Shown piece by piece: positions 2,309-63,712 of a stretch of 64,000 nucleotides of DNA (position 1 is its first letter; every line of letters starts with the position of its first letter). This DNA is from a virus: UHGV virus genome UHGV-0382128. The stretch is one strand, 5' to 3'. The position numbers and the translations under genes are program-made. A model generated the notes under the pieces. That model had not been told where the DNA came from. It did not search any database and saw nothing but the letters and a program-made list of their open reading frames with translations.

Positions 2309-2349
2309 GTGAGAGTAACTGAACTCTCACCTAAGTAATATATATCTGA
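2309..2349 (-). promoter_or_regulatory. conserved promoter-like motif CAGATATATATTACTTAGGTGAGAG plus 5' leader hairpin (GTGAGAGT-loop-ACTCTCAC), copy 1
   Basis: One of six copies of the same element, all on the minus strand immediately upstream of minus-strand genes; preceded by a terminator hairpin and T-run. Confidence 0.55.
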
Positions 2350-2367
2350 AATTATTTTTAATGTTGA

Positions 2368-2403
2368 CGAACAAAAAATAAAAGGTGGGGGTAAACCCCC
2401 ACC
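2368..2403 (-). terminator. rho-independent terminator-like hairpin
   Basis: GGTGGGGGTAAACCCCCACC hairpin directly after the stop of gene 2408..2986, followed on the minus strand by TTTTATTTTTTGT. Confidence 0.6.
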
Positions 2404-2407
2404 GACG

Positions 2408-2986
2408 TTATACATCGAACCGATACTGCCGGGAGTTAATGAGGAACTCAGTATTCAGCTCAATCCATTCGAGTAAATCCCCCAACGGTAATCGGTTTGG
2501 GTTTTCTAACTCGATAGATGCAACCGGATAAGAGTTTACTAATTCCGTAATCGCCTCAATGCCCTCTTGCGTTCCATCGTCTTCTAAGGTGATTGTAAAC
2601 GGCATATCGGTACGTTCCGCATTAGGATTGTACAAACTGACTTTCGTTGCTTGCACAAACGCAGTCAGGTCGTCTCGCATAATGCGAATATCTGGCGCTA
2701 GAACTACCCAGAGATGTTGCCCTGGCTGGAGTTTACGTTTTGCGTAGTTTACGAAAGGACTTGCCGTCAAGTTATCTAAACCACAACAGATGTTACGTAA
2801 ACGAATTCCGCGCGGATCTTTGTAATCCACGTCGAAAATCCCCACAGGTTCATTCGCTGCCCGCTTTATCAGAAAGGCTAATACCGTGTCCGCTCTTTCT
2901 GGTAAGGAAAGCTCTATTCCCTCAAGCTCCCCATCGACGAGATTTTCTAACCAAACGTCTTTTCGCATTTCTATTAATCGGTACAC
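2408..2986 (-). CDS. hypothetical protein
   Basis: ORF 192 aa, tightly packed with neighbours. Confidence 0.5.
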   Translation of the reverse strand: MYRLIEMRKDVWLENLVDGELEGIELSLPERADTVLAFLIKRAANEPVGIFDVDYKDPRGIRLRNICCGLDNLTASPFVNYAKRKLQPGQHLWVVLAPDIRIMRDDLTAFVQATKVSLYNPNAERTDMPFTITLEDDGTQEGIEAITELVNSYPVASIELENPNRLPLGDLLEWIELNTEFLINSRQYRFDV

Positions 2987-2998
2987 GGTTCCACCTCA

Positions 2999-3772
2999 CT
3001 AATAATTAAGTTTTACATCGGCAATAAACAGCAACTGTTTACCGTGTTGCTGCACTTCTTTCCAACCTAGTTTCATAGCAGCGTCAACAACATCTATCAT
3101 GCTGTAACGAGACATCAACGCGGTTGATTTTGTTCCTGACATTAAGTAAAGCGGCTCGTTGGGGCAACGGTCGCGTGCATCAGGAAGTTCCCGAGAGACT
3201 GCTGAGCCTTCGGGTACGGTAACAACATGAATCACGGTAAATGGTCTTTTGTGGGTTAAATAAATACGAAACCCAACGTGTTCAGACTCATGAAAGACTT
3301 TCTTTACAACCACATCTTTTAGTGTCGTCTGAACATCAATCCCAGGTAATATCGTGGATTCGCGAGAAACAAAACAACGACTATTTTCAACCATGGAGAA
3401 ATAATTACGTATCGGTAAACTGGCGTTATGATCGCGCAGTTTTTTGCTCAGTAGATCGAAGTTCAGTTCTTTAACTTTCTCTAGCCATTCTTTGGCTTGT
3501 TGTATGTAATAACTACCAACGGTGCGATAAGTCAATACCTTACCTGTGCTTACTTTCCAAAGTTTAACGCTTAGTGAATTCGGCTTATAGCGACGATACT
3601 CACCCCGCGTATAGTTGATGCGCTCGTAACGCTCTACATCGTCAACGGGCGCAGATTCGATCGATTGTAATTGCAACGTACGATCTAATCTATCGGCGAA
3701 TAGTAGTGATGTTAGCGGACCTTCGATCAAATACGGTTCGGTTTTAAAGATATCATCTAGATGGATTTTCAT
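2999..3772 (-). CDS. hypothetical protein, member of a 4-gene paralog family with conserved C-terminal motif (GW..V.K.G.QLLF.AD)
   Basis: C-terminus AMKLGWKEVQQHGKQLLFIADVKLNY aligns with the C-termini of ORFs 3840..4991, 5023..5577 and 5604..6338. Confidence 0.6.
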   Translation of the reverse strand: MKIHLDDIFKTEPYLIEGPLTSLLFADRLDRTLQLQSIESAPVDDVERYERINYTRGEYRRYKPNSLSVKLWKVSTGKVLTYRTVGSYYIQQAKEWLEKVKELNFDLLSKKLRDHNASLPIRNYFSMVENSRCFVSRESTILPGIDVQTTLKDVVVKKVFHESEHVGFRIYLTHKRPFTVIHVVTVPEGSAVSRELPDARDRCPNEPLYLMSGTKSTALMSRYSMIDVVDAAMKLGWKEVQQHGKQLLFIADVKLNY

Positions 3773-3839
3773 TTCTATTTCCTTCTTAACAAAAGCCGCG
3801 ACTAAAGCGCGGCAGTTAGAGAAAGTCTATTTTTACTTA

Positions 3840-4991
3840 TTAGAGGTCAGCAACAAACAACAGCTGGCAGCCGTACTTTTGTACGTCCGCCCAACCGTAG
3901 TCTTTTCCGATTATAGGTAGATGTAAAAAATCCAGCTTCTCGTCTTTCGCTTTTAGTTTCGCCATTAACGTATTGGACTCCTCAGCACTGAGCAGTAATG
4001 CGGGCTCTTTTTCAGTACGTCCTTCTGCGGTTGGGAAGAAATTGTAATAGCTGCGAGTAGGTAAATCGACAGAAAAACTACGATTGCCTATTCTGGCGAT
4101 GAACGCAACTCCTTCACAGTTAGCATCTACACTACACGACCATCCCGCCTCCGTTAAAAGGTCTTTTAACAGACACCACACTTTAAGTTGGTTCTTAGAA
4201 ACTGTACGGTAAATAGCAAGATGTTCAGGAAGTAAATGTACGCCCATAACCACGTTTTCAGATTTCTCGTCAAGCAACTCTGGATGCTGTATCGGGAACA
4301 ATAATTCAGTGATACCCACGTTATCAATTTTGTTAACAAAATCAGTTAATTCATCTTTTAAGGTACACACGGATTTTTCTCCTTTGTCTTCAATAATCAG
4401 GTGGGGTTCGCCGCTAATTAAAATGTGGTAAACGAGATCGTCAGTAGAACGGTAAGTGAGCTTGATTGCTTTATCACTTAATATTTCGTAGCGGAAGAAA
4501 CTTTCGTACCAACTTGAGCCGAAATCGTTTTGTGTGAGTTCCTGCTCAACTTTGATGGTTTTTGCTTCAAAGCCGATTAACTCGCTTAATAACGCGAGTT
4601 CTTGTTTAGTTAAAATAGCTACACCGTGAAAGGGCACTTGTTCAAGCTGAAAACATAACTTAGTGACTTCACCATTTGGGAAGACCTTAAACATAATCTT
4701 CCGGTTGCTACTCTTTTCCCTAACAACGAGTTTACGGTAATTTAGTCCACAATTTGTGTAAGCCGCGAACTGGTAACCTTCAATTTCTTCATCGGAAGTA
4801 CAGACATCGACAGGCGCGATAATCTCATCGTATTCACTAAGTACACAGCAGCCCAATTTATAACCAAACAACGTATGTTGTAAAAAATAGTCGAGGGTTA
4901 AGCTTGGTAGTGGCCAAGCCCGATTATAGCATCTGTCCATCAGTTCTTTTAGGTACTTGGCATGTCTTGGTTTAGAAATAATATTTCGCAT
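3840..4991 (-). CDS. hypothetical protein, same C-terminal-motif paralog family
   Basis: C-terminus KDYGWADVQKYGCQLLFVADL. Confidence 0.6.
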   Translation of the reverse strand: MRNIISKPRHAKYLKELMDRCYNRAWPLPSLTLDYFLQHTLFGYKLGCCVLSEYDEIIAPVDVCTSDEEIEGYQFAAYTNCGLNYRKLVVREKSSNRKIMFKVFPNGEVTKLCFQLEQVPFHGVAILTKQELALLSELIGFEAKTIKVEQELTQNDFGSSWYESFFRYEILSDKAIKLTYRSTDDLVYHILISGEPHLIIEDKGEKSVCTLKDELTDFVNKIDNVGITELLFPIQHPELLDEKSENVVMGVHLLPEHLAIYRTVSKNQLKVWCLLKDLLTEAGWSCSVDANCEGVAFIARIGNRSFSVDLPTRSYYNFFPTAEGRTEKEPALLLSAEESNTLMAKLKAKDEKLDFLHLPIIGKDYGWADVQKYGCQLLFVADL

Positions 4992-5022
4992 TTTTACTCT
5001 CCTTTAGGGGTTTTTTCGTTAC

Positions 5023-5577
5023 TTAAGCAGGGCAAGCTAAGAACAACAACTGCTGACCGATTTTACGTACGGTATACCAACCGTGGGCTTTAGCGACCGC
5101 GATCAACGTTTCCCAGTCATCAACATCACATTGCTCGTTCCGAAGTTTTGTAAAGAGTGCTTCGGCTTCGTCTTGGTTTAATAACTTACCTGGATTATCA
5201 GGGGTGGTGCCAGAAGGGGTTGGAAAGAAATCGTATTGACGCGCTAAGAGAAAATCAACCAGATACTTGGTGTTCTCTTTATAAACCAGCGTGGAAGTCT
5301 TCCCTTCGTGGAAGAAGCTGCCTGTTTTCCAAACGCTATCTTTCAGTAAGCTCTGAAGGTAATCTGTAAAGCCCGTTCTAAATGGGATATGCGTTTTACG
5401 CGTGATGTTGCGACGCAGCGGGGTTTCCTCTACAGCTTGTACACTTACCCCTACTATCATCGCACCTGGCTGGATAATGGTATTGGTCAGTACGGTATAA
5501 GGACGGACAAAGAAATGTTCGCCTACGCCTTTTTCAAGGGTTTGGATAATTTCATTTTTCAGTTCAGTTTGAAACAT
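5023..5577 (-). CDS. hypothetical protein, same C-terminal-motif paralog family
   Basis: C-terminus KAHGWYTVRKIGQQLLFLACPA. Confidence 0.6.
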   Translation of the reverse strand: MFQTELKNEIIQTLEKGVGEHFFVRPYTVLTNTIIQPGAMIVGVSVQAVEETPLRRNITRKTHIPFRTGFTDYLQSLLKDSVWKTGSFFHEGKTSTLVYKENTKYLVDFLLARQYDFFPTPSGTTPDNPGKLLNQDEAEALFTKLRNEQCDVDDWETLIAVAKAHGWYTVRKIGQQLLFLACPA

Positions 5578-5603
5578 GGTATATTCTCCTTTTAGGTTTT
5601 TAC

Positions 5604-6338
5604 TTACGCGGTTTTAATTAGCAGCAGATAGCCCTTCGTAATCTCAGCACAACTCCACCCTTTTACGGCAGCGACACCACGAAGGTAATTTTCTGTGTGA
5701 TACTGTAAAAACGGATCGTCTGGATTAATCTCAACTAGGTGAGTGGCTTTAGAAATCGTTTCCGCCTCTGGGATTTGTTTTGTTAAGCCTGATGCAATCA
5801 GTTCAATAACGCGGTATCCCTCTAACCAAGAAACATAGATACGTAAACCGTATAACTTACCGTTATCTTTTAAGGGATAAAGACTGATGTCCCGGCCGAG
5901 CAACGTTAATTCTACATCAGTGGGAAGGTTTTCTACATGCTTGATTAACCCTACCCCATGTCTAAACAGTGGGAAGTAAGAGTATAGCGTCAGCATACTG
6001 CTTCCTCCAATAAACGTAACATCGGAAACGGTAGGCGTGCTGGCAATGAGGCGAACATGTTCCGCTACGACTTCAAGTTCGGCGTCACTGATCAATTTAT
6101 AGAATAAAATGACGCTGGTTTCGGTATTAAGAACAAAGAAGAACCGGTTGGCGTGACTGCTTATCGTGTATTCGTCAACCATGCTGTCGATAACGTCACT
6201 GTCTGGATAATCTTCGGGTTTAATTGTTTCAGCAGAGACTAACTTAGCAGGTTGGGATTGCCCTATTAGTTCATTAACCACCGTAGAAGAAAGTTCTAAA
6301 CTGGTGTTAGTAAAGATATCGTCTAATAATTCTCTCAT
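5604..6338 (-). CDS. hypothetical protein, divergent member of the C-terminal-motif family
   Basis: C-terminus AVKGWSCAEITKGYLLLIKTA. Confidence 0.5.
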   Translation of the reverse strand: MRELLDDIFTNTSLELSSTVVNELIGQSQPAKLVSAETIKPEDYPDSDVIDSMVDEYTISSHANRFFFVLNTETSVILFYKLISDAELEVVAEHVRLIASTPTVSDVTFIGGSSMLTLYSYFPLFRHGVGLIKHVENLPTDVELTLLGRDISLYPLKDNGKLYGLRIYVSWLEGYRVIELIASGLTKQIPEAETISKATHLVEINPDDPFLQYHTENYLRGVAAVKGWSCAEITKGYLLLIKTA

Positions 6339-6545
6339 GATTTACTCGCTAATCTCAATAAAGGGGAGTCTATTATTATGGATTGTAAAAGAGGTATAAG
6401 GAAGTCACTACGTTCCTCTGGGAAGAGTATGTCGGTATACTACGTATACCTCCGCTATTTATATCCGTATACATAATGCCCCCTACCCCCTACCGGTATC
6501 CCGAGTAGCAGAATAAAGGGGCAGACTGTAAAATTTTAGTACCTG

Positions 6546-6626
6546 TTATCGGAAGGTACTAAATGGAGTGTAGTCTTTAAGCCGTTTGAGCAGCTCATTG
6601 AGACTTTCTTTCTTTTTAGTAGACAT
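6546..6626 (-). CDS. possible small ORF (26 aa, MSTKKKESLNELLKRLKDYTPFSTFR)
   Basis: Hand-translated; GGGGAGA RBS 6 nt upstream of ATG; lies downstream of promoter-motif copy 2 and its leader hairpin; too short to appear in the ORF track. Confidence 0.3.
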   Translation of the reverse strand: MSTKKKESLNELLKRLKDYTPFSTFR

Positions 6627-6680
6627 GATCTGTCTCCCCAAATGGTTTAATCAATCCGTTTCGAATGAAACGTGTCCGTA

Positions 6681-6731
6681 GGGGCTGAACTGGCACTTCA
6701 GCCCCTATTCACTTAAGTAATATATATCTGA
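6681..6731 (-). promoter_or_regulatory. conserved promoter-like motif CAGATATATATTACTTAAGTGA plus leader hairpin (GGGGCTGAA-loop-TTCAGCCCC), copy 2
   Basis: Same AT-rich core as the other copies; perfect 9-bp inverted repeat immediately downstream on the minus strand. Confidence 0.5.
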
Positions 6732-6759
6732 AATCAATTCCGATCTAAGGAACGTCCCG

Positions 6760-7725
6760 ATGGAGAAATCCAGTGTTGATTTTTTCTCAATTGGTATCGT
6801 CGCGGAAGACAAACCCCGTGGTACAGATCGGGTAAAAGTGATACCAATTGAAACCAACTTTGCTAACCCTACCGTGGTGCAATCTGTTTCTTCAGCAACT
6901 GAAAAGACGCATGAAACATCTGGTGCAACAGATAACCTAACCATTAAGACGGGTAACACGATAACAGCAAAGTGGTGGAAGTTTAACTCCAACCGAATTA
7001 ATTCCCCTGACGTTAAACGAGAAGATTACGTTATCTTGTTACGTTTGGGGAAAACCGATATTTATTTTTGGATTGATCTGAACTTCGCTAACGTTAAGCG
7101 ATTAGAGGATGCGGTTTACGCGTGGTCTGCTGACCCTGAAAACCAGATGGCGGATGACCTGTCCAATGCGTATGTGTTGAATATCTCGACGATTGACAAA
7201 CATATCACGCTAAGAACAAGTATGGTGAACGGTGAGAAAGCGGCGTGGTTGTTTCAGTTTGATAATGCAAACGGTACGTGGCAGTGTGTTGACCATAAAG
7301 GAAACAAGTATTACATTAACTCGGTTGAAGATGATCTCGGGTTTGAGAATGCGATGCTTTCAAAAGTGAACATCAACAAAGAAGATGCGTTCATTTATTC
7401 AAAGCGTTCTATTAACCTGGAAACGAAAACAATTAATGAAAAATGCGAAGTTCGCAATACGGAAGCAGCGAAATCCGTTACGTTTAAAACGCAAACCTGG
7501 TTAACGGAAGCAGGGAGTTCGACAACATTTAAAACGCCGAACTTTAAACAAGAAGGGAATGAAGCGATGTTCACCGGTAATCTGGAAATCGCTAAGAACT
7601 TCAAATACGGTGGTACGGGCAAAGGCGTCGGTGTCTTTACGGTTAAAGATGCCGTTATTTCTGGTATTACCTTTAGCGTTCACATTCACCAAGGTAAACA
7701 TGGCCCGACATCACCTCCACAGTAA
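6760..7725 (+). CDS. hypothetical protein (possibly virion-associated)
   Basis: ORF 321 aa; AAGGA upstream; first plus-strand gene after the divergent point at about 6740. Confidence 0.55.
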   Translation: MEKSSVDFFSIGIVAEDKPRGTDRVKVIPIETNFANPTVVQSVSSATEKTHETSGATDNLTIKTGNTITAKWWKFNSNRINSPDVKREDYVILLRLGKTDIYFWIDLNFANVKRLEDAVYAWSADPENQMADDLSNAYVLNISTIDKHITLRTSMVNGEKAAWLFQFDNANGTWQCVDHKGNKYYINSVEDDLGFENAMLSKVNINKEDAFIYSKRSINLETKTINEKCEVRNTEAAKSVTFKTQTWLTEAGSSTTFKTPNFKQEGNEAMFTGNLEIAKNFKYGGTGKGVGVFTVKDAVISGITFSVHIHQGKHGPTSPPQ

Positions 7726-7931
7726 TTCCCCTTTTTCTTACGTTGTTTTTATATATTGTGACCTGACGTTGGTAAAACTTTTTATCAACACTTTTCTTAA
7801 ACCCATCGTTTAGTTAAGCAGGCCACTTTTTTCGCGCACTCTACTCCTCCCTACGGGGAGGAGCTATCTTATGCTTCGGTTGTAACACACGTCGGTCTTA
7901 GACCACTAACCTTTTGAAATGGAGAGCTGTT

Positions 7932-8141
7932 ATGTCTATTAAAGAGTTCTCTTCTGCTGAGCATATTCCAGAAGAGTTTAAGAAAATCGGTAACGTCAGC
8001 GCTTTCGGCGATACCGTTGATCATGTAACTGGTAAACTGGCTGCTGAAGCCGAAAAAATTGGTGGTGACGCATTCAAAGTTATCGGTATTTCCGGCAACA
8101 ACAAACTGCACGGTAACGCGATTGTCTACAAAAAAGACTAA
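7932..8141 (+). CDS. DUF1471 (YhcN/BhsA/YdgH-like) domain protein lacking a signal peptide (start adjusted from 7914)
   Basis: C-terminal KIGGDAFKVIGISGNNKLHGNAIVYKK resembles the YhcN/BhsA family signature; GGAGAG RBS before ATG at 7932; no hydrophobic N-terminus. Confidence 0.5.
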   Translation: MSIKEFSSAEHIPEEFKKIGNVSAFGDTVDHVTGKLAAEAEKIGGDAFKVIGISGNNKLHGNAIVYKKD

Positions 8142-9523: not shown

Positions 9524-12500
9524 ATGGCTGTCGTCTTAGACCCACACTTCAAAAAACCGGGGAATAAAATAACCGGTGAAGCGGTCGCCGTCATTGGTAC
9601 GAAATACCGAATGTTGGTACCTGCCCACGCCCCTTTTTTCACCACATCCCTGGTGGTCAAGAGCGGCGGCAAAATACTGACCTTAGGCGACGATTACGTT
9701 ATTACACACTCGTACGAGACTGGTATGTTGCGCACAGCCTATCTCATTCACGGGATGATTTGGATTGTTAATGACAAATACAAATCGAACTTTACTGTAG
9801 ATTACCATGCTGTTGGTTGTGGTGAAGCAACCCAAGAGCAGATTACCGCAGAGCGCGAGCTTAATAAAGGTAAATACCCCTCCGCGTGTCAGTGGGACAC
9901 CGTTATCGGAGACGTTTACTTTCCACCGGTCGATATCCAGTTCGATTGGGAGAATTGGAAAGGTGAACTGGAGCTAATGCAGGCCATTGCTGGGGTAGGC
10001 GATTCGTTAGGGGAAGTCGTGAGTCGTCTTAACCCAATCGCACGCAATACACTGGATTTGGAATATCGTGCTAATAGCAAGGTTATCACTTCCGAGCAGT
10101 ATGCTGCGTACGATAATAAAGGCGGTTTCACCTACAACACAGCTCGCCACCGTTATAGCCTGAGTTATAAAGCGACAACCTTTAACAACTATTCCCTGTC
10201 GGTGAAACACAGAATTCCTGCTATTCTGCCAGACATGACAAAGTTGAATCCGAACGAACAGATCGATTGGATGCTCTGTTATGCCAACGGCGGTGCAAGT
10301 ATTCTACGGTTACAGCTAAAACAGCGCAAAATCTCACTGGTCTTAACTGTCGCTATTGGCAGTGGTTCAACAAACTACGATTATACTTTAATCAACGGTT
10401 TAACTGACGATGAGTTAAAAAACGATATCGATTTTAGTGTAACCCGACAACCCGGAAACGGCGTTTACGTAATCGTAGTAAAAACAAATAAACAGACCAT
10501 GGATTATACGTTCAACGTAGATACGCCGCCTGATGAGTTCTCGGCAGGGTATTCGAAAACGGATGTAGCCAAATGGTTGAAGTCTAAAACGAACATTAAC
10601 CTGAACTGGTATGCGGCTGAAAACGATTATGTTCAAATTCGTTCTTTACCCGGCGCGCCGGAGCCTGACGTCGATAACGATGTTTACCAGTTAATAGTTA
10701 AGTATCATCAGTTGGTTGAGCAGCTGTATCGTAATGCGCCTGCGCACGAACACATCACACGTAAGGACAACCCACACACAGATACGTGGGGTCCGATCCG
10801 TGCGTTAGAGTTGAACGGTATTGCGTCGGATGCAGCATTAGCTTACGGAAAAACGAAGCCGCAGTTAACGGATTATGTTAATGCTAAGTATCCAACACAA
10901 GCGACGCTGACAGCACAAAAGAAACTATTGCGCACGTCAGCTACGAAAACGGCTAACGGAACTATTGGAACGCTGCCCGGTTTTACTTCGTTCACGACGG
11001 AAGTTGACCCGGTGTCAATGTCGAAATACGTGAGTCCTCGTTTTAGCGAAAGCTACGTTAGTAATGGTCACAGGTATCACGGTGCGCTTCGTTACACAGG
11101 AACGAAGAGTGGATTCGCCACTTCTTTTAATGCGGTACCTGCTAACCTGCAAGATATTGACTTTATTGTTACCGGACGTAAAACAGCGTCTGGTAATGAA
11201 GCTGTCGGTACGGTTAGCCTACGTTTCTATCAGAAACCTGGTACTAACTCTGGAAAATTTATCCAGCTTACAGGTGAAATTTCTGCGGGTAAAGTCGGCG
11301 TTAAGTTGGAACTGAACGGTTTTTCGAATCCCACACCGGAAGTTCAGTATCTTTCCCAAGCTCCTAATCCAGCAATACCGGATGGGGATTTTACGCTGCG
11401 TTTTCAACTGAAACGCACAGGGAACGTGTTTGATGTCGTTATTACCATAAACGGCAAGACATACAGTGCACGTGTTAACTTCACTAACATGGACGCTGCA
11501 CTAGAAGCATTGGAGAATAGCCACCACTTTAAATCATTGATCAGTAATGTTGCTGACAACGTCACTATTAGCTCGGGGAATAAAGGTAACACGGTTACCA
11601 TTAAGAAAGCGCCCGACGTCGTTGACGGGACCCGTTTAGGTGCCCAGTTTGTCGTTGACCCGAAATCCATTAAGTTTATTGGACAAGGTTCAACCGAGGT
11701 TAATGTGGGGAATAACCCGGTAACGTTTCAAGCAGGTATTAACCAGCTTATATTGTATCCTGATGATCGTGGATTACAGTGGCGTGGTAAGAAACTCTTA
11801 GACCCCACTACCGTGGCTCCGTATCTGCCAGGCAATACCGCGGGCGGTACGGGATTATTCTACGGTACATCTACAACCACGGTAGAGCTTACCGGTAGCG
11901 GGATAAAAGCATCGCCGTTCGTAGCGACTTTTATTCTCCCTACCGCGACAGATACAACAGCCCTGGCAGCTTGGCAGTTGACTGATGAGTTTGGTACCGC
12001 TGAAAACCTTGCAGCAACGCCAGCACTGATTGAAAAACTCGATGCGGAGTTCACCGGTAAATTAGTTGCGGTTAAATCGTACATTAACGATATGCAACTT
12101 ACCAGCTCGGTCACTATCGACAAAATTACCTTTGGTTTAGGTAACGTTGCGAATACACCCGATGTCAATTTACCGATTTCTACAGCACAACGTGCGGAGT
12201 TAGATAAATACTCGCCTAAAGTTCACCAACACCCGTTTACCGCTTTTGGTACTGGGAACGCAACCACAGCGAAACGTGGTCTGATTAAATTTGGTCTGGA
12301 TGTGGATGATGCGACTTTAGCACTCGATGGGAGTGTGGTAATGGCGCAGACCTCCCAGATTGAAAAATTGGAAAATGCTGTCGGTGGCGTTGACTCGGGT
12401 GCTCGCGTTGACATTATTCGTTTCGGCAAGTCTGGTGACGACTTAATTAACGTTACGGTTAAAGACAAAATTCTGGCTATGCTCCCCGCTTCAACGTACT

Positions 12501-40212: not shown

Positions 40213-40253
40213 GTGAGAGTAACTGAACTCTCACCTAGGTAATATATATCTGA
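40213..40253 (-). promoter_or_regulatory. conserved promoter-like motif plus leader hairpin, copy 3 (leader nearly identical to copy 1)
   Basis: CAGATATATATTACCTAGGTGAGAGTTCAGTTACTCTCACTTAACGAAACCATTTTAGGAGAA. Confidence 0.55.
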
Positions 40254-40264
40254 AAATATTTTTA

Positions 40265-44589: not shown

Positions 44590-44636
44590 GGAGTGAACGT
44601 AAATTTCACTCTCTCTCCTAGGTAATATATATCTGA
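44590..44636 (-). promoter_or_regulatory. conserved promoter-like motif plus leader stem-loop, copy 4
   Basis: TTCTCAGATATATATTACCTAGGAGAGAGAGTGAA...; preceded by terminator hairpin 44649-44683. Confidence 0.5.
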
Positions 44637-44683
44637 GAAAAAATATAAAAACCGTAGGATGGACTTAGTCCATCCTACGGTTT
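44637..44683 (-). terminator. rho-independent terminator
   Basis: AAACCGTAGGATGGAC-TAAG-TCCATCCTACGGTTT hairpin then TTATATTTTTT on the minus strand, after the tailspike gene. Confidence 0.7.
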
Positions 44684-47918: not shown

Positions 47919-47928
47919 CCCCCCCCCC
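47919..47928 (+). repeat. C10 homopolymer (G10 on the coding strand) directly after the start codon of the receptor-binding-like paralog
   Basis: Counted directly; length determines whether the N-terminal 22 codons are in frame. Confidence 0.9.
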
Positions 47929-51700: not shown

Positions 51701-53210
51701 ACGCACCTGACAACATACGGTTGTACACGTTACCATTACGACAGGTAAAACGTTGCGCACCGCTATAGTTACCCGCTTTATACACTTCTAGATAACCTAC
51801 CGCACCGTCTTCCGGGAAGTGTTTTGCTATTGATGCGTTTGTTGATGTCGACTTGGACCATGTTCCTGTGTAATTGGCATCTGGAGCAAATGTGTTAATA
51901 TCAGCATCTGCGGGCATTTCACCACGGAAACGCAGATAGGTATCAGGAGATAGACCAATATTGCGAGCAAAGGTTTCTTTATTGGGGATATCAGCACCGT
52001 TAGAGTTTTTCTGTAACGCAGCGTTCGCTTTATCTACAGTGGCTTTTAATCCCAAGAAATTGATGATATCCGCAGTTGTCCCTTTTGCTAACAAGGTTCT
52101 GGCGGTTTCTGTAAAGTCAGTTAACCCGACTTTATTAGTGCCAGTGAAATAAGGGAGCTTGTTTGCTGCGGTTGTGACTGCGGCAATAGCAGTAAGTAGT
52201 GGACTGATAGGTTGCTTCTGTGCAAGTTTCTCAGTAATCGTTGTTGCGAAGTTAGGGTCATTACCTAACGCCGTAGCTAATTCCGCTAAGGTATCTAACG
52301 TCTCAGGTGAAGAACCAACCAATTCCGCGATAGCAGCACGCACCCAGGCCGTTGTGGAGATGCTCGTGTCATTCGAGTCCTTTGGGGGCGTTGGTGATGT
52401 CGGGTTACCCGTAAAATTCGGCGAATGTTTATCGGCTTTTAACTGTAATTCGTCGTTCAGCTGTTTAACCGTGGACGGTGTGGCAGCCTCCGTCACGGAT
52501 TCGCTAGTCAGGGTATTGTTAAGTTTAACGATACCTTTACCGGTCGTACTAGCGTCAACTAAACCCTGTGCAGCGATTTTCTCCGCACGCAGAGCGGCTG
52601 ACTCCGAGCGTGTAGCTGCGCCTTCTGAGCTTTCTTTATCTTTCGTAACCTGCGCAGCAACCTTCTCCACCGCGCCCTTACTGGCCTCAATTGAAGCCGC
52701 AGTATTTGCGATACTGGTAGCGGTCTGTTGAACCTGTCCGGCCCGTTGCGTAACCGTTTCTGCTTTCTTAGTTACATCAGCCGCTACAGCTGTCACAGAT
52801 TGTTCGCTTGCGGCGACAGCTTGAGCCTTCTCATTTACTGATTGTGAAACAGTATCTACGGCAGTTTTTGCTGCTAAAACTTCAGCGTGTTTTTTGTTAA
52901 CCTCCGCAGTTTTAGTGGCGACGGTTCCCGCTTGCTCATTAACTGTGGAAGCTAAAGTGGTGGTCTGTTGCTTCGCTGTTTCTGCTAAATCTTTAGCTTT
53001 CGTAGCTTCTGTTGCGGACTGTTGTGATTTGGCCGCAGCCGTTTGTGCATCAGCAACCGCACTTCTGACGGTGTCAATGTCCGCAACGATCTCGCGGACG
53101 GGTAACTTATAATCTTTTTCGTCTTTCGAAAAAAGTAAAACGCCTTCACCGATATCCCCGGTGTACGGATGTAAGTCGTGTAAACGTATTTTCTTTACCG
53201 CTTTAGCCAT
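48771..53210 (-). CDS. long tail fibre protein (1479 aa) with tandem about 39-aa repeats and C-terminal intramolecular chaperone (peptidase S74-like) domain
   Basis: C-terminus SDRRNKRNLVKLDKALDRLELLTGYLYEIQHPDDGWQTSVGLIAQDALEALPELVS fits the S74 auto-cleaving chaperone signature; six repeats of GNQ.TTGNAATATKLQTAR.IGGV.FDGT.DI.LPGVNQ; fibre-repeat-like TTGKGIVKLNNTLTSESVTEAATPSTV. Confidence 0.8.
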   Translation of the reverse strand: MAKAVKKIRLHDLHPYTGDIGEGVLLFSKDEKDYKLPVREIVADIDTVRSAVADAQTAAAKSQQSATEATKAKDLAETAKQQTTTLASTVNEQAGTVATKTAEVNKKHAEVLAAKTAVDTVSQSVNEKAQAVAASEQSVTAVAADVTKKAETVTQRAGQVQQTATSIANTAASIEASKGAVEKVAAQVTKDKESSEGAATRSESAALRAEKIAAQGLVDASTTGKGIVKLNNTLTSESVTEAATPSTVKQLNDELQLKADKHSPNFTGNPTSPTPPKDSNDTSISTTAWVRAAIAELVGSSPETLDTLAELATALGNDPNFATTITEKLAQKQPISPLLTAIAAVTTAANKLPYFTGTNKVGLTDFTETARTLLAKGTTADIINFLGLKATVDKANAALQKNSNGADIPNKETFARNIGLSPDTYLRFRGEMPADADINTFAPDANYTGTWSKSTSTNASIAKHFPEDGAVGYLEVYKAGNYSGAQRFTCRNGNVYNRMLSGAWNGTNGPWSPWRMVTTGVRPLSTSIDLNSLGGAEHMGNWRNSSSSLAVFDRHYPEEGGNAQGVLEVMEGGLYGRLQRYTTRRGTMYVRGLTATWDSSNPQWEDWIQVGYQVDGAYYKGSFNDLTKPGRFSVTGEATDSPLTDSAGATLLGVCEVTLRLDGSGVEQNYTTYGTGATSKGRKFQRIRTGNAWSEWREIFTSYSLPLTLGIGGVAAKVDPLDWQTFDFVPGQMISTPLNTMKNIPAGMDWGVIDGNLVTILVGASEDTGTGRSMLVWRGTVSTANYRFFAVRVAGEKGKRTITSRQMPVLNAAHTWAEKQTFAKGLSGELTGNAATATKLKTARLIGGVSFDGSGDISLPGVNQQGNQNTSGNAGTATKLQTARNINGVKFDGSRDININTLVGRGRVTALTGSNKGTPGIQMYEVYNNGYPTAYGNLLHLGGSAALGEGELLIGWSGTSGAHAPVYIRSRRDTADAPWSDWAQVYTARDSIPGVNATGNQDTTGNAATATKLKTARRIGGVSFDGTGDINLPGVNQQGNQNTTGNAATATKLQTARKIGGVVFDGTKDVNLPGVNQTGNQSTTGNAATATKLQTARNIGGVAFDGTKDISLPGVNQTGNQSTTGNAATATKLQTARTINGIAFDGTRNISLGPAEIGCPASPSGWLETGADGGAITTAQLVTLLKNNGAFTTRSWVARCAWAYAASASIPHSETGCGVIPLAGAVIEVISNGNSTNNYTIRITTATTTSVGGALTNAEFIYVFNGDGYSPGWRRAYNTRNKPTAAEVGALPSGGGTIGGDLTVNGKLATKYPDFRIAYGTYGFILRNDGANTYFLVTDAGQAAAGSWNGLRPLSFNNSNGQVNFGHNVTGNGNGSFNDVQIRSDRRNKRNLVKLDKALDRLELLTGYLYEIQHPDDGWQTSVGLIAQDALEALPELVSEDDDAISGEKRLRLNYNGVIALLVEGMKSLRRELKELKGN
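49770..50720 (-). repeat. tandem coding repeats (about 117 nt units) inside the 1479-aa fibre gene
   Basis: Repeating nucleotide units readable on the plus strand (e.g. ...gccgtggctgcgtttccggtggtcgactgattccctgtttggtttac...) corresponding to the protein repeats; two runs separated by a non-repeat segment at about 50230-50500. Confidence 0.7.
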
Positions 53211-58063: not shown

Positions 58064-58104
58064 GAAGAAAAATAAAAAGTACCCTCTCTCCGTTAGGAGA
58101 GAGG
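58064..58104 (-). terminator. rho-independent terminator
   Basis: CCCTCTCTCC-GTTA-GGAGAGAGGG hairpin followed by T-rich run on the minus strand. Confidence 0.65.
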
Positions 58105-58112
58105 GGCACTGC

Positions 58113-58382
58113 TTAAATCTTACGACTGCTACCGTAGCATCCACGACCAGCTGTCGTCTTCGCAGCACTGACGGGTGCTAACGCAACCATCGTACCATCG
58201 GCCTTAACAATGTGTAAGTTACCTGCACGAGTCAGACCTTTAAAGGTAATCTTCACACCCTTGCGTAAACTCTTCACATCGAAACCGTCGAGTTTGAGTG
58301 TTTTGATTTTCTCAGGTTTACCTTCTTCGTAATAAGAAAGTACATTACCTGCACGTTTTTCAACAATATAGATCTTAGCCAT
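58113..58382 (-). CDS. hypothetical small basic protein
   Basis: ORF 89 aa; preceded by divergent promoter-motif copy 6 and leader hairpin. Confidence 0.45.
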   Translation of the reverse strand: MAKIYIVEKRAGNVLSYYEEGKPEKIKTLKLDGFDVKSLRKGVKITFKGLTRAGNLHIVKADGTMVALAPVSAAKTTAGRGCYGSSRKI

Positions 58383-58405: not shown

Positions 58406-58440
58406 GTGAGAATTCTCACATAGATGAAATATATCTTAAA
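58406..58440 (-). promoter_or_regulatory. divergent copy of the promoter-like motif plus leader hairpin (GTGAGAATTCTCAC), copy 6
   Basis: AAGATATATTTCATCTATGTGAGAATTCTCAC; weaker match to the consensus. Confidence 0.35.
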
Positions 58441-59059: not shown

Positions 59060-59156
59060 TTAAGCTGTTCCTCAATTAATTTGTTTACGTGTGCATAATT
59101 AGACGCGGAAGCGTAAAAATAAATTCTCCCTCCCTCCAAACGGAGAGAGGGGAAGT

Positions 59157-61527: not shown

Positions 61528-62506
61528 TATATCCGCCTTGTAACGATGATACTTCGTCGCCTAACACCAGCTCGACACGATTTTTCCGACGCTCCCAACT
61601 GACGACGTCATCGTCGCGCACTAAAACAAATTCGTACTCGTAGGACCGAAATTTAAATAATTCGACGACCAGGTGTCTAAATGCAGGGTTGTTATTGAAA
61701 CACCCTATCTCCAATGGTGCCGCTGTTGTCGATGCAATCTGCAGAGCACGGTATAACAAAGTCCGTCCGATACCACGCCCCCGATGTGTTTCACTTACCG
61801 CAATGGCTTTTAATTCACACTCGTTAAGATTACGCAATTTAACTTGCACCACGCCCACAACATCGTTGCCGTCCATCCAAACGTAGGTGTGGTGGTTGAC
61901 GTGACGTACTAACTCCACCAACGTTTCGACTTGTGGCATGATTTGTCGTGAGCGGCCCACAGGGTCAGCGTTGATGTTTTCAACTACGCTCGCGCCTAAA
62001 AGCAACATAAGCTGTTCTCGTTGTGCAGCGGTTAACTCTTTATAAAAATCACCAGAGATGTTCTTCACGTTCGTTGGTAGAGCGATATCCAATAACGAGC
62101 GTGTACCTAAACGGTATGTGGTGTGGGTGTGTCTAAATCCTAAGTCATTAAGCTCAGAGATTTCTTCTACACCACTGGCGATTCGATTAAGATACGTAAA
62201 ACCGGTGTAGTCGAGTACCAGTAGTAGGTTCAGTTTGTTCAAACAACCTGGTACAATTTCATGCATATACAAGCAGTGTAACGTTGGATCGCCGTAAATG
62301 TGTTTTGTGATGATAAACCCTTGAATTGTTTTTCCTTTTTGTAAAGAGAACGTATTCAGTTCACTATTGCACAACGCCTCACGAATCACCGCACCGTTAG
62401 GGCCCGATAAACAAGCCTGAAGTTGAGGGTTGCGAATATCTCTACGTGCTAACCGACCTACTGTTAAATCCGTGGCGGTACGTTCTATAGTCTTCCTAAA
62501 AGCCAT
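61508..62506 (-). CDS. two-domain protein with C-terminal GNAT-type acetyltransferase motif
   Basis: ELKAIAVSETHRGRGIGRTLL matches the GNAT acetyl-CoA-binding motif; N-terminal about 200 aa unknown; overlaps Dam by 20 nt. Confidence 0.55.
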   Translation of the reverse strand: MAFRKTIERTATDLTVGRLARRDIRNPQLQACLSGPNGAVIREALCNSELNTFSLQKGKTIQGFIITKHIYGDPTLHCLYMHEIVPGCLNKLNLLLVLDYTGFTYLNRIASGVEEISELNDLGFRHTHTTYRLGTRSLLDIALPTNVKNISGDFYKELTAAQREQLMLLLGASVVENINADPVGRSRQIMPQVETLVELVRHVNHHTYVWMDGNDVVGVVQVKLRNLNECELKAIAVSETHRGRGIGRTLLYRALQIASTTAAPLEIGCFNNNPAFRHLVVELFKFRSYEYEFVLVRDDDVVSWERRKNRVELVLGDEVSSLQGGYNAETNY

Positions 62507-62600
62507 GTTAATTACTCCTTAAAAGGTCGTCTCAAAACAATACGCTAAAGCTGTAAAAACAAAAAAGAAAGGGGAACCGAAGTTCCCCAATTATTGAACA

Positions 62601-63257
62601 TCATGCAAAAGGGGCGGAGCTTGTGAAAGCAAGATTGGGTGTCATGCCAGCTTTCCCTAATTTTTCATACAGGTAATTGAAAAATCTGAGATGGACCTCG
62701 TAGTGGCCAGTCGCTACTCGCTGGCCGTAAACTTCTACCAAGTCAGGCGAAAACTTAATATGGCAGTTTTGTCTAGAGAACAAAGGTTGTTGCACCCCAC
62801 CCTTAATTAAGATGCGATACTTTTTACCATCGTCTGTTACGGCGTGAAGAATATTTGTATTGAAATGGAAATAGATAGAAGGGTTAAAACTCAACCAGTC
62901 GGCAGCATTGACTAGTAGGTCAGCTAACTTAACACCGATTTTGTCAAGTTCAGGCCCTTCAAACTTATGCATTAACCGCAGGAGAATTTCAGTAATAACC
63001 GTACCTGTAAGTAACTTGTCTCTATTAAGGCCAGGCGCAACCGCCAAAATGTCGCCATTATAAGTGCAGACAAGTGTGAATAAGTTGAAAGGCTGGTCTT
63101 GATAAAAATCGAAAACCAGGTCAGTATACGGATTAAAAGTTAAGAATTTCACCCCAATTATTTCATTAACGCAGGGTAAAAGTTCAACCTTCGCAGCCGG
63201 TTGAACTTCGTTGGCTTTAGTCTCGTTCTTTACAGTTTCTTTAGTTTTCGGTGCCAT
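62601..63257 (-). CDS. hypothetical protein
   Basis: ORF 218 aa. Confidence 0.5.
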   Translation of the reverse strand: MAPKTKETVKNETKANEVQPAAKVELLPCVNEIIGVKFLTFNPYTDLVFDFYQDQPFNLFTLVCTYNGDILAVAPGLNRDKLLTGTVITEILLRLMHKFEGPELDKIGVKLADLLVNAADWLSFNPSIYFHFNTNILHAVTDDGKKYRILIKGGVQQPLFSRQNCHIKFSPDLVEVYGQRVATGHYEVHLRFFNYLYEKLGKAGMTPNLAFTSSAPFA

Positions 63258-63278
63258 GATATTACTCCTTCAGGTTGA

Positions 63279-63638
63279 TTAGTGTGTTACAGTGTTAGTG
63301 ATAAAACGCACATTCTTCTTGGTACGTTTAATGGACGTGTTTGCAACGTAGTCCAATGCGGACTCTACGTGAACGGTTACTGAGCAACGACCCTTAACGG
63401 AATTAAAACTAATCTGATATTTCAGACGAATCGCATCAGCAACTTTCATCATAATCGGCAAGCTTAAACGTTCTACGCGTTCGTTCTTAATAGATGAGAT
63501 AACGGGTTGTGAAACTTTCGCAAGCTGGGCAAGCTCACGCTGGGTAATGTCTTTCGTGGTCAAATGACAAACTACGTAAGACAAATGAAGCCCAAATTTA
63601 CGTTTTGCCAGAACGATGGAATTGTGATTGTAAGCCAC
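63279..63638 (-). CDS. helix-turn-helix DNA-binding protein (putative transcriptional regulator), GTG start
   Basis: ITQRELAQLAKVSQPVISSIKN resembles an XRE-type HTH; AAGGAG RBS; follows promoter-motif copy 5. Confidence 0.5.
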   Translation of the reverse strand: MAYNHNSIVLAKRKFGLHLSYVVCHLTTKDITQRELAQLAKVSQPVISSIKNERVERLSLPIMMKVADAIRLKYQISFNSVKGRCSVTVHVESALDYVANTSIKRTKKNVRFITNTVTH

Positions 63639-63674
63639 GGTAATACTCCTTTAGGTTAACAAGTCGGTGTAAAG

Positions 63675-63712
63675 AGTTAATTGTAACTCTCACCTAAGTA
63701 ATATATATCTGA
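63675..63712 (-). promoter_or_regulatory. conserved promoter-like motif plus leader, copy 5
   Basis: TTCTCAGATATATATTACTTAGGTGAGAGTTACAATTAACTC; preceded by terminator 63727-63752 and T-run. Confidence 0.55.

What the first reader, a model, noticed from the sequence alone, without database searches (positions are those of the whole stretch)
2309..63712. Conserved 24-nt AT-rich promoter-like motif followed by a leader hairpin, six copies, all upstream of minus-strand genes
Copies at 2309-2349, 6681-6731, 40213-40253, 44590-44636, 63675-63712 and a divergent one at 58406-58440 share CAGATATATATTAC(T/C)TAGGTGAGAG on the minus strand, typically right after a terminator hairpin and T-run, and followed by a stable stem-loop before the RBS. 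No consistent sigma70 -35 element is present upstream, so it may be recognised by a phage-encoded or phage-modified RNA polymerase. The TATATTAC core resembles the AT-rich early-promoter element I recall for phiKZ-like phages, and TTAGGTGA resembles part of the SP6 promoter; both resemblances are from memory and unverified.
Basis: partly seen in the sequence, partly recalled or inferred. Interest (0 to 1): 0.6.

Follow-up and report, generated by a model that had tools for sequence, protein, structure and literature searches.

The report
Jumbo-phage early promoters with leader hairpin
The six repeats are very probably the early-gene promoters that a giant (SPN3US/phiKZ-type) phage's own injected RNA polymerase reads, each followed by a hairpin at the start of the transcript; this kind of promoter is already known, so the find is real but mostly ordinary.

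Summary
A 29-nt matrix (TTTCAGATATATATTACYTAGGTGAGAGT) finds exactly six sites in the window. All are on the minus strand, in non-coding gaps, 37-86 nt before a start codon. None lies on the plus strand or in coding sequence.

The window comes from an uncultured ~225-kb jumbo phage, syntenic with Salmonella phage SPN3US at 64-72% nucleotide identity in genes. The promoter motifs are 92-100% identical. The six sites map one-to-one, in order, onto the six SPN3US sites in the syntenic span.

The architecture (A-rich block, TTTCAG, ATATATTAC, N4, GTGA) matches published predicted early-promoter consensus sequences of phiKZ, 201phi2-1, OBP and N1M2, at the same spacing. These are attributed to the virion-packaged multisubunit RNA polymerase. 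Close relatives of the window phage encode that polymerase. The phiKZ recollection is therefore verified; the SP6 resemblance is an irrelevant 8-mer.

The added value is the hairpin. It begins about where transcription should start, covaries among sites, and is more stable on the sense strand. I infer a 5'-terminal RNA stem-loop, probably stabilising the mRNA. Seven phiKZ promoters show no such regular hairpin.

Nothing here is experimentally mapped. Verdict: a new member of a known kind, of modest interest.

The parts
2323..2351 (-). P1 promoter 29-mer TTTCAGATATATATTACTTAGGTGAGAGT. An A-rich block ACATTAAAAATAA lies just upstream at 2352-2364.
   Evidence: 47.0 bits.
2309..2330 (-). P1 leader hairpin GTGAGAGT-tcagtt-ACTCTCAC, starting at the inferred transcription start. 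The Shine-Dalgarno AGGAGA and the ATG at 2279 follow.
   Evidence: -12.2 kcal/mol, z -4.6.
2376..2403 (-). Intrinsic-terminator-like hairpin plus T-run that closes the upstream operon, just before P1.
6705..6733 (-). P2 promoter 29-mer TTTCAGATATATATTACTTAAGTGAATAG. It lies in a divergent intergenic gap next to the plus-strand baseplate-like gene 6760-7725.
   Evidence: 38 bits.
6679..6707 (-). P2 leader hairpin with an 11-bp GC-rich stem, TAGGGGCTGAA-gtgccag-TTCAGCCCCTA. A second small hairpin, a 26-aa ORF (6546-6626) and a further ~200 nt of non-coding sequence follow before gene 5604-6338.
40227..40255 (-). P3 promoter 29-mer.
   Evidence: 46.8 bits.
40213..40234 (-). P3 leader hairpin, identical to that of P1. 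The whole ~60-nt promoter, leader and SD cassette is shared with P1 in front of an unrelated gene whose ATG is at 40183.
44610..44638 (-). P4 promoter 29-mer TCTCAGATATATATTACCTAGGAGAGAGA.
   Evidence: 43.4 bits.
44591..44611 (-). P4 leader hairpin GAGTGAA-atttacg-TTCACTC. Its GAAATTTACG loop motif recurs in leaders of related phages.
44641..44683 (-). Strong 16-bp terminator hairpin plus T-run that ends the preceding 706-aa gene, directly abutting P4.
58412..58440 (-). P6 divergent promoter TTTAAGATATATTTCATCTATGTGAGAAT. It is the positional ortholog of the equally divergent SPN3US site at 100811.
   Evidence: 22.8 bits.
58406..58419 (-). P6 leader hairpin GTGAG-aatt-CTCAC. The 89-aa gene 58113-58382 follows and is closed by the terminator at 58105-58082.
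63686..63714 (-). P5 promoter 29-mer, upstream of the HTH protein gene 63279-63638. That gene is the ortholog of SPN3US ACQ60_gp165, which has the same motif upstream.
63669..63693 (-). P5 leader hairpin, with core AGAGTTA-caat-TAACTCT.
63715..63752 (-). Terminator hairpin plus T-run immediately upstream of P5.

Best explanation
The six sites are early promoters of an SPN3US-like nucleus-forming jumbo phage. [quoted passage not shown]

The promoter is a continuous element of about 40 bp. It has an A-rich block near -30 (aTTAAAAA), TTTCAG near -20, ATATATTAC near -10, four less-constrained bases, then GTGA. Initiation is inferred to occur inside GTGA.

Each promoter opens a short operon of small, fast-evolving early genes, and half of them sit directly behind the terminator of the previous unit.

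The first 14-29 transcribed bases form a stem-loop 0-6 nt from the inferred 5' end. I take this to be a 5'-terminal RNA hairpin. It would protect early mRNAs from 5'-end-dependent decay (RppH and the RNase E 5' sensor), by analogy with established E. coli cases. The Shine-Dalgarno sequence is left free 15-40 nt downstream.

Shown here:
- the motif, its strand and intergenic specificity;
- cross-genus conservation and positional orthology;
- architectural identity with published phiKZ-group early promoters;
- the vRNAP gene in close relatives;
- hairpin enrichment, covariation and sense-strand bias.

Inferred, not shown: use by vRNAP, early timing, the exact start site, and the stabilising role of the hairpin. 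I give the promoter identity about 0.85 and the mRNA-stabiliser role about 0.5.
For: Specificity:
- Six of six sites are on the minus strand, intergenic and co-oriented with the downstream genes.
- SPN3US has 15 sites, all intergenic, on the gene strand and immediately upstream of genes (against the annotation).

Conservation:
- Against INPHARED phages, the only nucleotide-level hit of window 1-8000 is the motif plus leader.
- Against SPN3US, genes are 64-72% identical but the motifs are 92-100% identical.
- The exact 19-mer occurs in IMG/VR at 40 places in 14 contigs. Thirteen are jumbo-phage contigs of 107-246 kb and one is a 7.4-kb fragment.
- The six window sites correspond in order to the six SPN3US sites within the syntenic 93.9-165.7 kb. 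Downstream genes are orthologous for P5, P6 and P1, and weakly for P2.

Family match:
- PMC7058600 Table 2 gives the N1M2, OBP, 201phi2-1 and phiKZ consensus sequences.
- The phiKZ genome itself shows TTTAAACAG-TATATTAC-TAAnTTGA at 7 of 7 intergenic sites.
[quoted passage not shown] It assigns these promoters to vRNAP.
- An A-rich block lying outside the scoring matrix is conserved, including one invariant A.

Polymerase:
- SPN3US vRNAP subunits gp42/218/240/241/244 are virion-packaged and essential.
- A homolog of gp241, 76-77% identical, is present in the contigs closest to the window.
- One SPN3US site (15610) heads an operon that contains a gene annotated as an RNAP beta subunit and not among the five vRNAP genes. 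This is what is expected for early-expressed nvRNAP.

Downstream genes are small ORFans plus one HTH protein.

Hairpin:
- 32 of 57 unique sites have a perfect stem of at least 5 bp starting at motif positions 21-25. About 3.2 are expected after shuffling (maximum 9), and 5% at random genomic positions.
- For stems of at least 7 bp the count is 21 against 0.3 expected.
- At least 12 different complementary arm pairs occur, for example AGAGTTA/TAACTCT, AGATTA/TAATCT, AGCGTTA/TAACGCT, AGCATTGA/TCAATGCT and AGATGAG/CTCATCT.
- The sense strand folds 2.3 kcal/mol better than the antisense strand, against 0.44 +/- 0.27 in composition-matched shuffles. There are 77 G-U pairs in sense folds and 24 in antisense folds.
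Against: - No 5' end, timing or polymerase dependence has been measured for this phage or, as far as I could find, for any SPN3US-like phage.
- The start-site position is transferred from phiKZ and 201phi2-1 descriptions. ONT-cappable-seq there has +/-2 nt uncertainty.
- The vRNAP gene is not inside the window. It is shown only in 80-98% identical relatives.
- In P2 and P4 the hairpin starts 5-6 nt downstream of the inferred start, which would leave a short single-stranded 5' end.
- Seven phiKZ early promoters show no regular hairpin, so the hairpin is not required for vRNAP promoters in general.
- The 57 instances are not phylogenetically independent.
- RNAalifold on a MAFFT alignment found no consensus pairs, because loop lengths differ.
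Confidence: 0.8

Rival explanations
1. The motif is a host sigma-70 early promoter, as in T4. TATATT would be the -10 box and the A-rich block an UP-like element, read by the bacterial RNA polymerase.
For: TATATT is a 5/6 match to TATAAT and would place the start at the same GTGA. One site (P3) gets a weak 9/12 sigma-70 pattern match.
Against: No -35-like hexamer is conserved at 16-18 nt spacing; five of six sites have no match at all, and matches in the window are at or below the shuffle expectation. The would-be spacer (TTTCAGATA) and the discriminator/+1 region are nearly invariant, which sigma-70 promoters do not require. The same element occurs in Pseudomonas, Klebsiella, Erwinia and Salmonella jumbo phages. 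In phiKZ, infection is independent of host RNAP.
Confidence: 0.06
2. The motif is a promoter of the second, non-virion phage polymerase (middle or late class) rather than of the injected vRNAP.
For: Timing has not been measured. In 201phi2-1 some promoter classes were unexpected for their genes.
Against: Published phiKZ middle promoters have only a weak AT-rich element at -24, and late promoters have only TATG at the start. Neither resembles this motif. The motif is absent from the 22-kb plus-strand block of virion structural genes (9.5-31.4 kb) and from the tail-fibre gene upstream region. It matches the early consensus at full length.
Confidence: 0.05
3. The inverted repeat acts in DNA, not RNA. 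It would be either a promoter hairpin extruded from supercoiled DNA (as for the phage N4 virion polymerase) or an operator for a repressor such as the HTH protein encoded after P5.
For: N4 vRNAP is a precedent for hairpin promoters. An HTH gene sits behind a strong copy in both this phage and SPN3US.
Against: The arms differ in sequence between sites while staying complementary, which argues against one sequence-specific operator. Loops vary from 3 to 9 nt and the stem lies downstream of the -10-like box, unlike N4 promoters. Folding is significantly better on the sense strand, with three times more G-U pairs. That is expected for RNA, not for a symmetric DNA cruciform or protein site.
Confidence: 0.06
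4. The leader hairpin is a transcriptional attenuator or pause site. It would give short 5'-UTR-derived RNAs or allow antitermination control, rather than stabilise the message.
For: In many Erwinia-phage and SPN3US copies the 3' arm runs into TTTT, for example AATCTTTTA and TCTAGTTTTTT. Premature termination in 5' UTRs giving small RNAs was reported for 201phi2-1.
Against: In the window only P5 has a T-run after the stem. P1, P3, P4, P6 and the very stable P2 hairpin do not. Stems are short and AU-rich compared with the real terminators nearby.
Confidence: 0.15
5. Besides being promoters, the terminator-promoter-leader units act as recombination cassettes that shuffle early genes, like PeSL elements of T4-type phages. 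This is an added role, not exclusive of the best explanation.
For: P1 and P3 share an identical ~60-nt promoter-leader-SD cassette before unrelated genes. Homology with relative L009 breaks at the downstream edge of the P1 motif, where the window has ~0.5 kb (the P1 leader and gene 1908-2279) against ~0.09 kb in L009. In L028 the first gene after P4 is missing. The homolog of the first P1 gene in SPN3US sits behind a motif copy at a non-syntenic place. PeSL precedent: PMC2839356 and PMC4122927.
Against: Only a handful of breakpoints were inspected and no statistics were run. Early regions are variable in any case. Three of six sites lack the terminator half.
Confidence: 0.3

Closest known systems
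Early (vRNAP) promoters of phiKZ-like jumbo phages: phiKZ TATATTAC; 201phi2-1 TTTRARR_BTATATTACDWHDGTG; OBP and N1M2 TTTCARRYAKATATTATYWAAGTGWA
   Same: Same blocks at the same spacing (TTT-N6-(T/G)ATATTA(C/T)-N4-(G/T)TGA, with an A-rich stretch upstream). Intergenic, co-oriented, at the head of operons of small hypothetical genes. The genome group encodes a virion-packaged split beta/beta' RNAP.
   Different: The enterobacterial SPN3US-clade version is longer and almost invariant (ATATATATTACYTAGGTGAGAG), and it is followed by a covarying hairpin at the transcript start. No such regular hairpin is seen at seven phiKZ promoters. There are no transcript data for this clade.
5'-terminal stabilising stem-loops of bacterial and phage mRNAs (E. 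coli ompA leader; T7 late-transcript 5' hairpins). This comparison rests on established knowledge, not on a tool result.
   Same: A short hairpin within a few nucleotides of the 5' end, an unstructured SD further downstream, and a sequence free to vary provided pairing is kept.
   Different: The function has not been tested here, the polymerase and promoter are unrelated, and two of six window hairpins start 5-6 nt from the inferred end.
PeSL (promoter-early stem-loop) cassettes of T4-type phages (PMC2839356, PMC4122927)
   Same: A composite terminator stem-loop plus early promoter, repeated between variable small early genes, with gene indels and replacements ending at the cassette.
   Different: T4 PeSLs carry sigma-70 early promoters. 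Here the promoter is of the phiKZ vRNAP type, the extra hairpin is downstream of the promoter, and only half the copies have the terminator.
SP6/T7-type single-subunit RNAP promoters
   Same: Only the octamer TTAGGTGA, and the general idea of a long phage-specific promoter.
   Different: No match to the rest of the SP6 promoter. The polymerase in this clade is multisubunit.

Membership tests
phiKZ-group (Chimalliviridae-type) vRNAP early promoter | Conserved AT-rich core of about 8-10 nt (TATATTAC / KATATTAY) | tested here: met
   ATATATTAC is identical in five sites and ATATTTCAT in the sixth. The published consensus sequences are, and phiKZ genome copies.
phiKZ-group (Chimalliviridae-type) vRNAP early promoter | Flanking blocks at fixed spacing: TTT(C/A)A 9 nt before the core, A/T-rich -30 region, (G/T)TG(A) 4 nt after the core | tested here: met
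   The window consensus aTTAAAAAnnaTTTCAGATA-TATATTAC-YTAG-GTGA aligns without gaps to the N1M2, OBP and 201phi2-1 consensus sequences and to phiKZ sites.
phiKZ-group (Chimalliviridae-type) vRNAP early promoter | Intergenic, co-oriented with the downstream genes, at the head of operons of small hypothetical genes, and absent from structural-gene blocks | tested here: met
   Six of six in the window and 15 of 15 in SPN3US.
phiKZ-group (Chimalliviridae-type) vRNAP early promoter | The phage encodes a virion-packaged multisubunit RNAP | tested here: met
   The gene is not in the window itself. A homolog of SPN3US vRNAP gp241 (76-77% identity) is found in the four IMG/VR contigs that are 80-98% identical to the window. 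Packaging has been shown for SPN3US.
phiKZ-group (Chimalliviridae-type) vRNAP early promoter | 5'-triphosphate transcript ends about 10 nt downstream of the core, appearing early, resistant to rifampicin and independent of protein synthesis | not testable with these tools
   No transcript data for this phage or its clade were found in the literature library.
SP6/T7-like single-subunit RNAP promoter | About 18-23 nt conserved from -17 to +6 (SP6: ATTTAGGTGACACTATAG), with a T7-like RNAP gene | tested here: not met
   No match within 3 mismatches. The sequence after TTAGGTGA is the variable hairpin. Relatives encode split beta/beta' subunits.
Bacterial sigma-70 promoter | -35 TTGACA-like and -10 TATAAT-like hexamers 16-18 nt apart | tested here: not met
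   Only P3 has a 9/12 match. Counts in the window do not exceed shuffles. No conserved -35 appears in the logo.
Phage N4 vRNAP hairpin promoter | DNA hairpin (5-7 bp stem, 3-nt loop) upstream of the start site as the recognition element | tested here: not met
   The hairpin lies downstream of the conserved box. Loops are 3-9 nt, and the sense-strand bias indicates RNA.
PeSL-type mobile regulatory cassette | Terminator stem-loop fused to an early promoter, repeated at the borders of variable gene modules, with recombination breakpoints inside the cassette | tested here: inconclusive
   A terminator is present at three of six sites. There is a duplicated cassette (P1 = P3) and two indel borders at cassettes in relatives. 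No systematic test was done.

The most novel reading that the evidence does not exclude
In the SPN3US clade, the covarying hairpin at the very 5' end of every vRNAP transcript, together with the invariant GUGAGAG start, may be more than a decay block. It could be a clade-specific functional tag of early mRNAs. Possible roles are promoter escape by the sigma-less injected polymerase, exit of early mRNA from the early-infection vesicle, or preferential loading on ribosomes remodelled by the phage. A sub-class with a conserved GAAATTTACG loop could bind a dedicated phage protein.
Probability: 0.12. Interest if true: 0.6.

Novelty: new member of a known kind. Interest (0 to 1): 0.3.

Why it matters
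The result gives a ready-made early-operon map for an uncultured ~225-kb jumbo phage that recurs in many metagenome assemblies.

It also shows that the vRNAP promoter is the most conserved DNA in these genomes. It is 92-100% identical where genes are 64-72% identical, and recognisably the same from Pseudomonas to Salmonella phages. That constrains how the still structurally uncharacterised virion polymerase reads DNA.

The +1 hairpin, with covariation and strand bias, is a concrete and cheaply testable hypothesis about how early jumbo-phage mRNAs are protected or handled. It would be useful when designing expression cassettes for engineering these phages.

None of this overturns current understanding.

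Tried and rejected
- RNAalifold on a MAFFT alignment of 25 leaders gave no consensus pairs, because loops of 3-9 nt put the 3' arms out of register. I replaced it with an anchored stem search with shuffle and random-position controls.
- Counting mismatch types inside stems (4 G-T against 0 A-C) was too sparse to use. It was replaced by sense versus antisense folding with a composition control.
- Rfam at gathering threshold and ARAGORN found nothing in the window.
- A second IMG/VR scan with the 16-mer CAGATAGATATTATCT was unspecific: most of its 68 loci are single hits in small contigs. I do not use it as evidence.
- The short 13-mer core search was not above chance on its own (6 found, 2.8 expected). 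Only the long motif is significant.
- The primary papers (Ceyssens 2014, Lavysh 2016, Cornelissen 2012) and the TSS supplement tables are not held. The start-site offset therefore rests on text statements.
- An exact-protein look-up of the 1394-aa virion protein failed, probably because of the start codon choice. The radical-SAM protein worked.
- The SP6 lead was rejected. Sigma-70 was rejected.

Full report
**1. The observation**

All four are on the minus strand, and none is expected by chance.

I read all six places. I then built a 29-nt matrix from the five strong copies (TTTCAGATATATATTACYTAGGTGAGAGT). It scores 38-47 bits at 2323-2351, 6705-6733, 40227-40255, 44610-44638 and 63686-63714. 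It scores 22.8 bits at the divergent 58412-58440.
- Nothing else in the window exceeds 8 bits on either strand.
- The best hit in 20 shuffles was 14.2 bits.
- The short 13-nt core alone is not above chance. The significance lies in the long motif.

A crude gene model puts 93% of the window in ORFs, and all six sites lie in the remaining gaps. Each is followed, 37-86 nt after the inferred start, by a start codon with a Shine-Dalgarno sequence.

Corrections to the finding:
- The consensus is 25 nt rather than 24, and conservation extends to about 40 nt.
- A terminator plus T-run directly precedes three of the six sites, not most of them.
- The absence of a sigma-70 -35 element is confirmed. One weak 9/12 match occurs at P3, and window counts are at or below shuffle expectation.

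**2. What genome this is**

The large plus-strand proteins are virion structural proteins. The 1394-aa one is 42-50% identical to proteins of SPN3US-like Salmonella and Erwinia jumbo phages and to nothing closer in the deposited phage collection.

By blastn the window is syntenic, in inverted orientation, with SPN3US 93.9-165.7 kb, at 64-72% identity in genes.

IMG/VR holds uncultured relatives 80-98% identical in DNA, on contigs of 220-225 kb. An identical radical-SAM protein is found on ~225.5-kb metagenome scaffolds in many samples. The window therefore comes from an uncultured, apparently common, ~225-kb SPN3US-like jumbo phage.

**3. Conservation of the motif**

Against 50,697 phage records, the only nucleotide-level hit of window 1-8000 is the motif plus its leader (2322-2381), in SPN3US-like Salmonella and Erwinia phages.

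The exact 19-mer CAGATATATATTACYTAGG occurs at 40 places in 14 IMG/VR contigs. Thirteen are 107-246 kb jumbo-phage contigs, including SPN3US, phiEaH2, ChrisDB, Caitlin and Huxley; one is a 7.4-kb fragment.

A full scan of SPN3US finds 15 sites. All are on the gene strand, intergenic and immediately upstream of annotated genes. There was also one weak reverse hit that merely overlaps a true site.

Within the syntenic span SPN3US has exactly six sites: 94235, 100811, 109889, 113982, 161915 and 165683. The window has six in the same order.
- The weak window copy P6 corresponds to the weak SPN3US copy at 100811.
- The first genes after P5 and P6 are orthologs of the first genes after the matching SPN3US sites.
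- The third P1 gene is the ortholog of the first gene after the matching SPN3US site.
- For P2, the third gene shares a weak 65-aa match with the C-terminal part of the first gene after 161915.

Motifs are 92-100% identical where coding DNA is 64-72% identical.

**4. Identity with a known class**

A review of jumbo-phage polymerases makes three points:
- A conserved motif can be found upstream of presumed early operons in every RNAP-encoding jumbo phage.
- Where tested, that motif is the early promoter.
- It is an AT-rich, roughly 10-nt element centred near -10, and must be recognised by the virion RNAP.

PMC7058600 Table 2 lists the consensus sequences:
- phiKZ: TATATTAC
- 201phi2-1: TTTRARR_BTATATTACDWHDGTG
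- OBP: ...TTTYARRYAKATATTATYWWADTG
- N1M2: ...AWWWWWTTTCARRYAKATATTATYWAAGTGWA

The window element (aTTAAAAAnnaTTTCAGATATATATTACYTAGGTGAGAG) aligns to these without gaps. I checked phiKZ directly. In its first 50 kb TATATTAC occurs seven times, always on the coding strand, always intergenic and just upstream of a gene, in the context TTTAAACAG-TATATTAC-TAAnTTGA.

The weaker copies in SPN3US and Erwinia phages (AGATAGATATTATCTnAGTGA) look like the OBP/N1M2 form.

The SP6 resemblance is an 8-mer coincidence. No site matches the SP6 promoter within three mismatches, and this clade uses a multisubunit enzyme.

**5. The polymerase**

SPN3US packages an essential five-subunit vRNAP, gp42/218/240/241/244 (PMC5694885). 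The RefSeq locus tags map as 266 minus the original number. This reproduces all five annotations and the thymidylate kinase.

A search with gp241 finds 76-77% identical homologs in exactly those IMG/VR contigs that are closest to the window.

One SPN3US site (15610) heads an operon containing a gene annotated as an RNAP beta subunit that is not one of the five vRNAP genes. This is expected if nvRNAP is an early product.

In the window, the genes downstream of the sites are small ORFans plus one HTH protein. No site lies in the 22-kb structural block or before the tail-fibre gene.

**6. Where transcription should start**

The literature places the AT-rich box about 10 bp upstream of the TSS, describes conserved -10, -20 and -30 regions, and notes a T-rich motif upstream of -19. 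Transferring this to the window:
- ATATATTAC sits near -14 to -6.
- TTTCAG sits near -22 to -17.
- The A-rich block sits near -33 to -25.
- The start falls inside GTGA, at motif positions 21-24.

This is an inference, with at least +/-2 nt uncertainty.

**7. The hairpin**

All six window leaders fold into a stem-loop, with a 32-nt MFE of -5.9 to -16.1 kcal/mol and z of -2.1 to -4.6. It begins at position 21 in P1, P3, P5 and P6, and 5-6 nt further on in P2 and P4.

Across 57 unique sites from the window, SPN3US and the IMG/VR loci:
- 32 have a perfect stem of at least 5 bp starting at positions 21-25. About 3.2 are expected after shuffling the downstream sequence (maximum 9 in 200 trials), and 5% at random genomic positions.
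- For stems of at least 7 bp the figures are 21 against 0.3.

The arms differ between sites while staying complementary. Examples are AGAGTTA/TAACTCT, AGATTA/TAATCT, AGCGTTA/TAACGCT, AGCATTGA/TCAATGCT, AGATGAG/CTCATCT, ACTAGA/TCTAGT and GAGTGAA/TTCACTC. This is structure conservation, not sequence conservation.

The sense strand folds 2.3 kcal/mol better than the antisense strand (Wilcoxon p = 8e-8; 77 against 24 G-U pairs). Composition-matched shuffles give 0.44 +/- 0.27. That points to a structure in the transcript rather than a DNA cruciform or a symmetric protein site.

Caveats: the sites are not phylogenetically independent, and RNAalifold on a MAFFT alignment failed because of variable loops. 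Seven phiKZ early promoters show no regular hairpin. The feature therefore seems particular to the SPN3US clade, or at least much stronger there.

**8. Mechanism**

Most likely, the injected vRNAP binds the roughly 40-bp duplex element and starts at GTGA. The nascent RNA then immediately forms a 5'-terminal stem-loop.

It is established for E. coli that 5' stem-loops with very few unpaired 5' nucleotides block RppH and the 5'-end sensor of RNase E, and so prolong mRNA life. By that analogy the hairpin probably stabilises early messages. The SD remains accessible in the predicted folds.

Alternatives for the hairpin:
- An attenuator or pause site. Many Erwinia and SPN3US copies run into a T-tract, but most window copies do not.
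- A role in promoter escape or mRNA handling.

Rivals for the promoter (host sigma-70, nvRNAP) and for a DNA-level role are weak, for the reasons given in the rival list.

**9. A possible second role**

P1 and P3 share an identical ~60-nt promoter-leader-SD cassette in front of unrelated genes.
- In relative L009, homology to the window breaks at the downstream edge of the P1 motif. There the window carries ~0.5 kb (the P1 leader and first gene) where L009 has ~0.09 kb, so that gene is absent from L009.
- In L028 the first P4 gene is missing.
- The homolog of the first P1 gene in SPN3US sits behind another motif copy at a non-syntenic site.

This resembles the PeSL cassettes that mediate modular shuffling in T4-type phages. 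I inspected only a few cases.

**10. Verdict**

The element belongs to an already described class, the phiKZ-group vRNAP early promoters, here in an uncultured SPN3US-like phage.

The incremental points are:
- the near-invariance of the enterobacterial version;
- the positional orthology of promoters across genera;
- a covarying, sense-biased hairpin at the transcript start.

Interest is modest (0.3). Novelty: new member of a known kind.

Noticed in passing
window 26611-26619 (+), 32073-32082 (-), 42392-42401 (+), 47378-47387 (-), 47919-47928 (-): There are five homopolymer G (or C) runs of 9-10 nt, four of them in intergenic gaps or 5' leaders of minus-strand genes. They contain fourteen overlapping 8-mers, against 0.5 expected. 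Possible readings are slippage-prone tracts, terminator stems or another signal; the function is unknown.
   Followed up: no
window 44598-44607; SPN3US (L040) 9920-9929 = genome 109920; L011 2554-2563; similar loops in L010, L018, L028 and L039: A sub-class of leader hairpins carries a conserved loop or inner-stem sequence GAAATTTACG while the outer arms differ. The window copy (P4) and the SPN3US copy both follow a tail-protein gene. It could be a protein-binding RNA motif.
   Followed up: partly
window 2280-2351 and 40184-40255: P1 and P3 share an identical ~60-nt promoter, hairpin and SD cassette before unrelated genes. In relatives L009 and L028 the first gene after a cassette is absent, and homology to L009 breaks at the downstream edge of the P1 motif. 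This suggests cassette-mediated gene shuffling as in T4 PeSLs.
   Followed up: partly
window 6339-6705: P2 has an unusually long leader. It contains a very stable 11-bp GC-rich hairpin, a second small hairpin, a 26-aa ORF (6546-6626, MSTKKKESLNELLKRLKDYTPFSTFR) with a good SD, and then ~200 nt without an ORF before gene 5604-6338. It could be a leader peptide or a small RNA.
   Followed up: no
window 48771-53210 (-): The 1479-aa tail-fibre protein is mosaic. Segments are 49-73% identical to fibres of phage P1, T-even phages (T6, PST) and other coliphages. This suggests an enterobacterial host and horizontal exchange of receptor-binding modules.
   Followed up: no
window 27990-30234 (+); loci L056-L059: A pair of adjacent radical-SAM genes is conserved with SPN3US gp102/gp103. 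An identical 440-aa protein is recorded in 116 blocks of the assembly collection, including ~225.5-kb scaffolds from several metagenome samples, so this uncultured phage is widespread.
   Followed up: partly
window 58082-58105 and 59126-59151 (-): Two near-identical terminator hairpins (CCCTCTCTCC...GGAGAGAGGG and CCCTCTCTCC...GGAGGGAGGG) lie about 1 kb apart, flanking the P6 unit. They form a repeated terminator type distinct from those upstream of P1, P4 and P5.
   Followed up: no
phiKZ L055 45568-45650: Among seven phiKZ early promoters, only the one before the nuclear-shell gene PHIKZ054 has a markedly stable leader structure (-8.8 kcal/mol, z -4.4).
   Followed up: no
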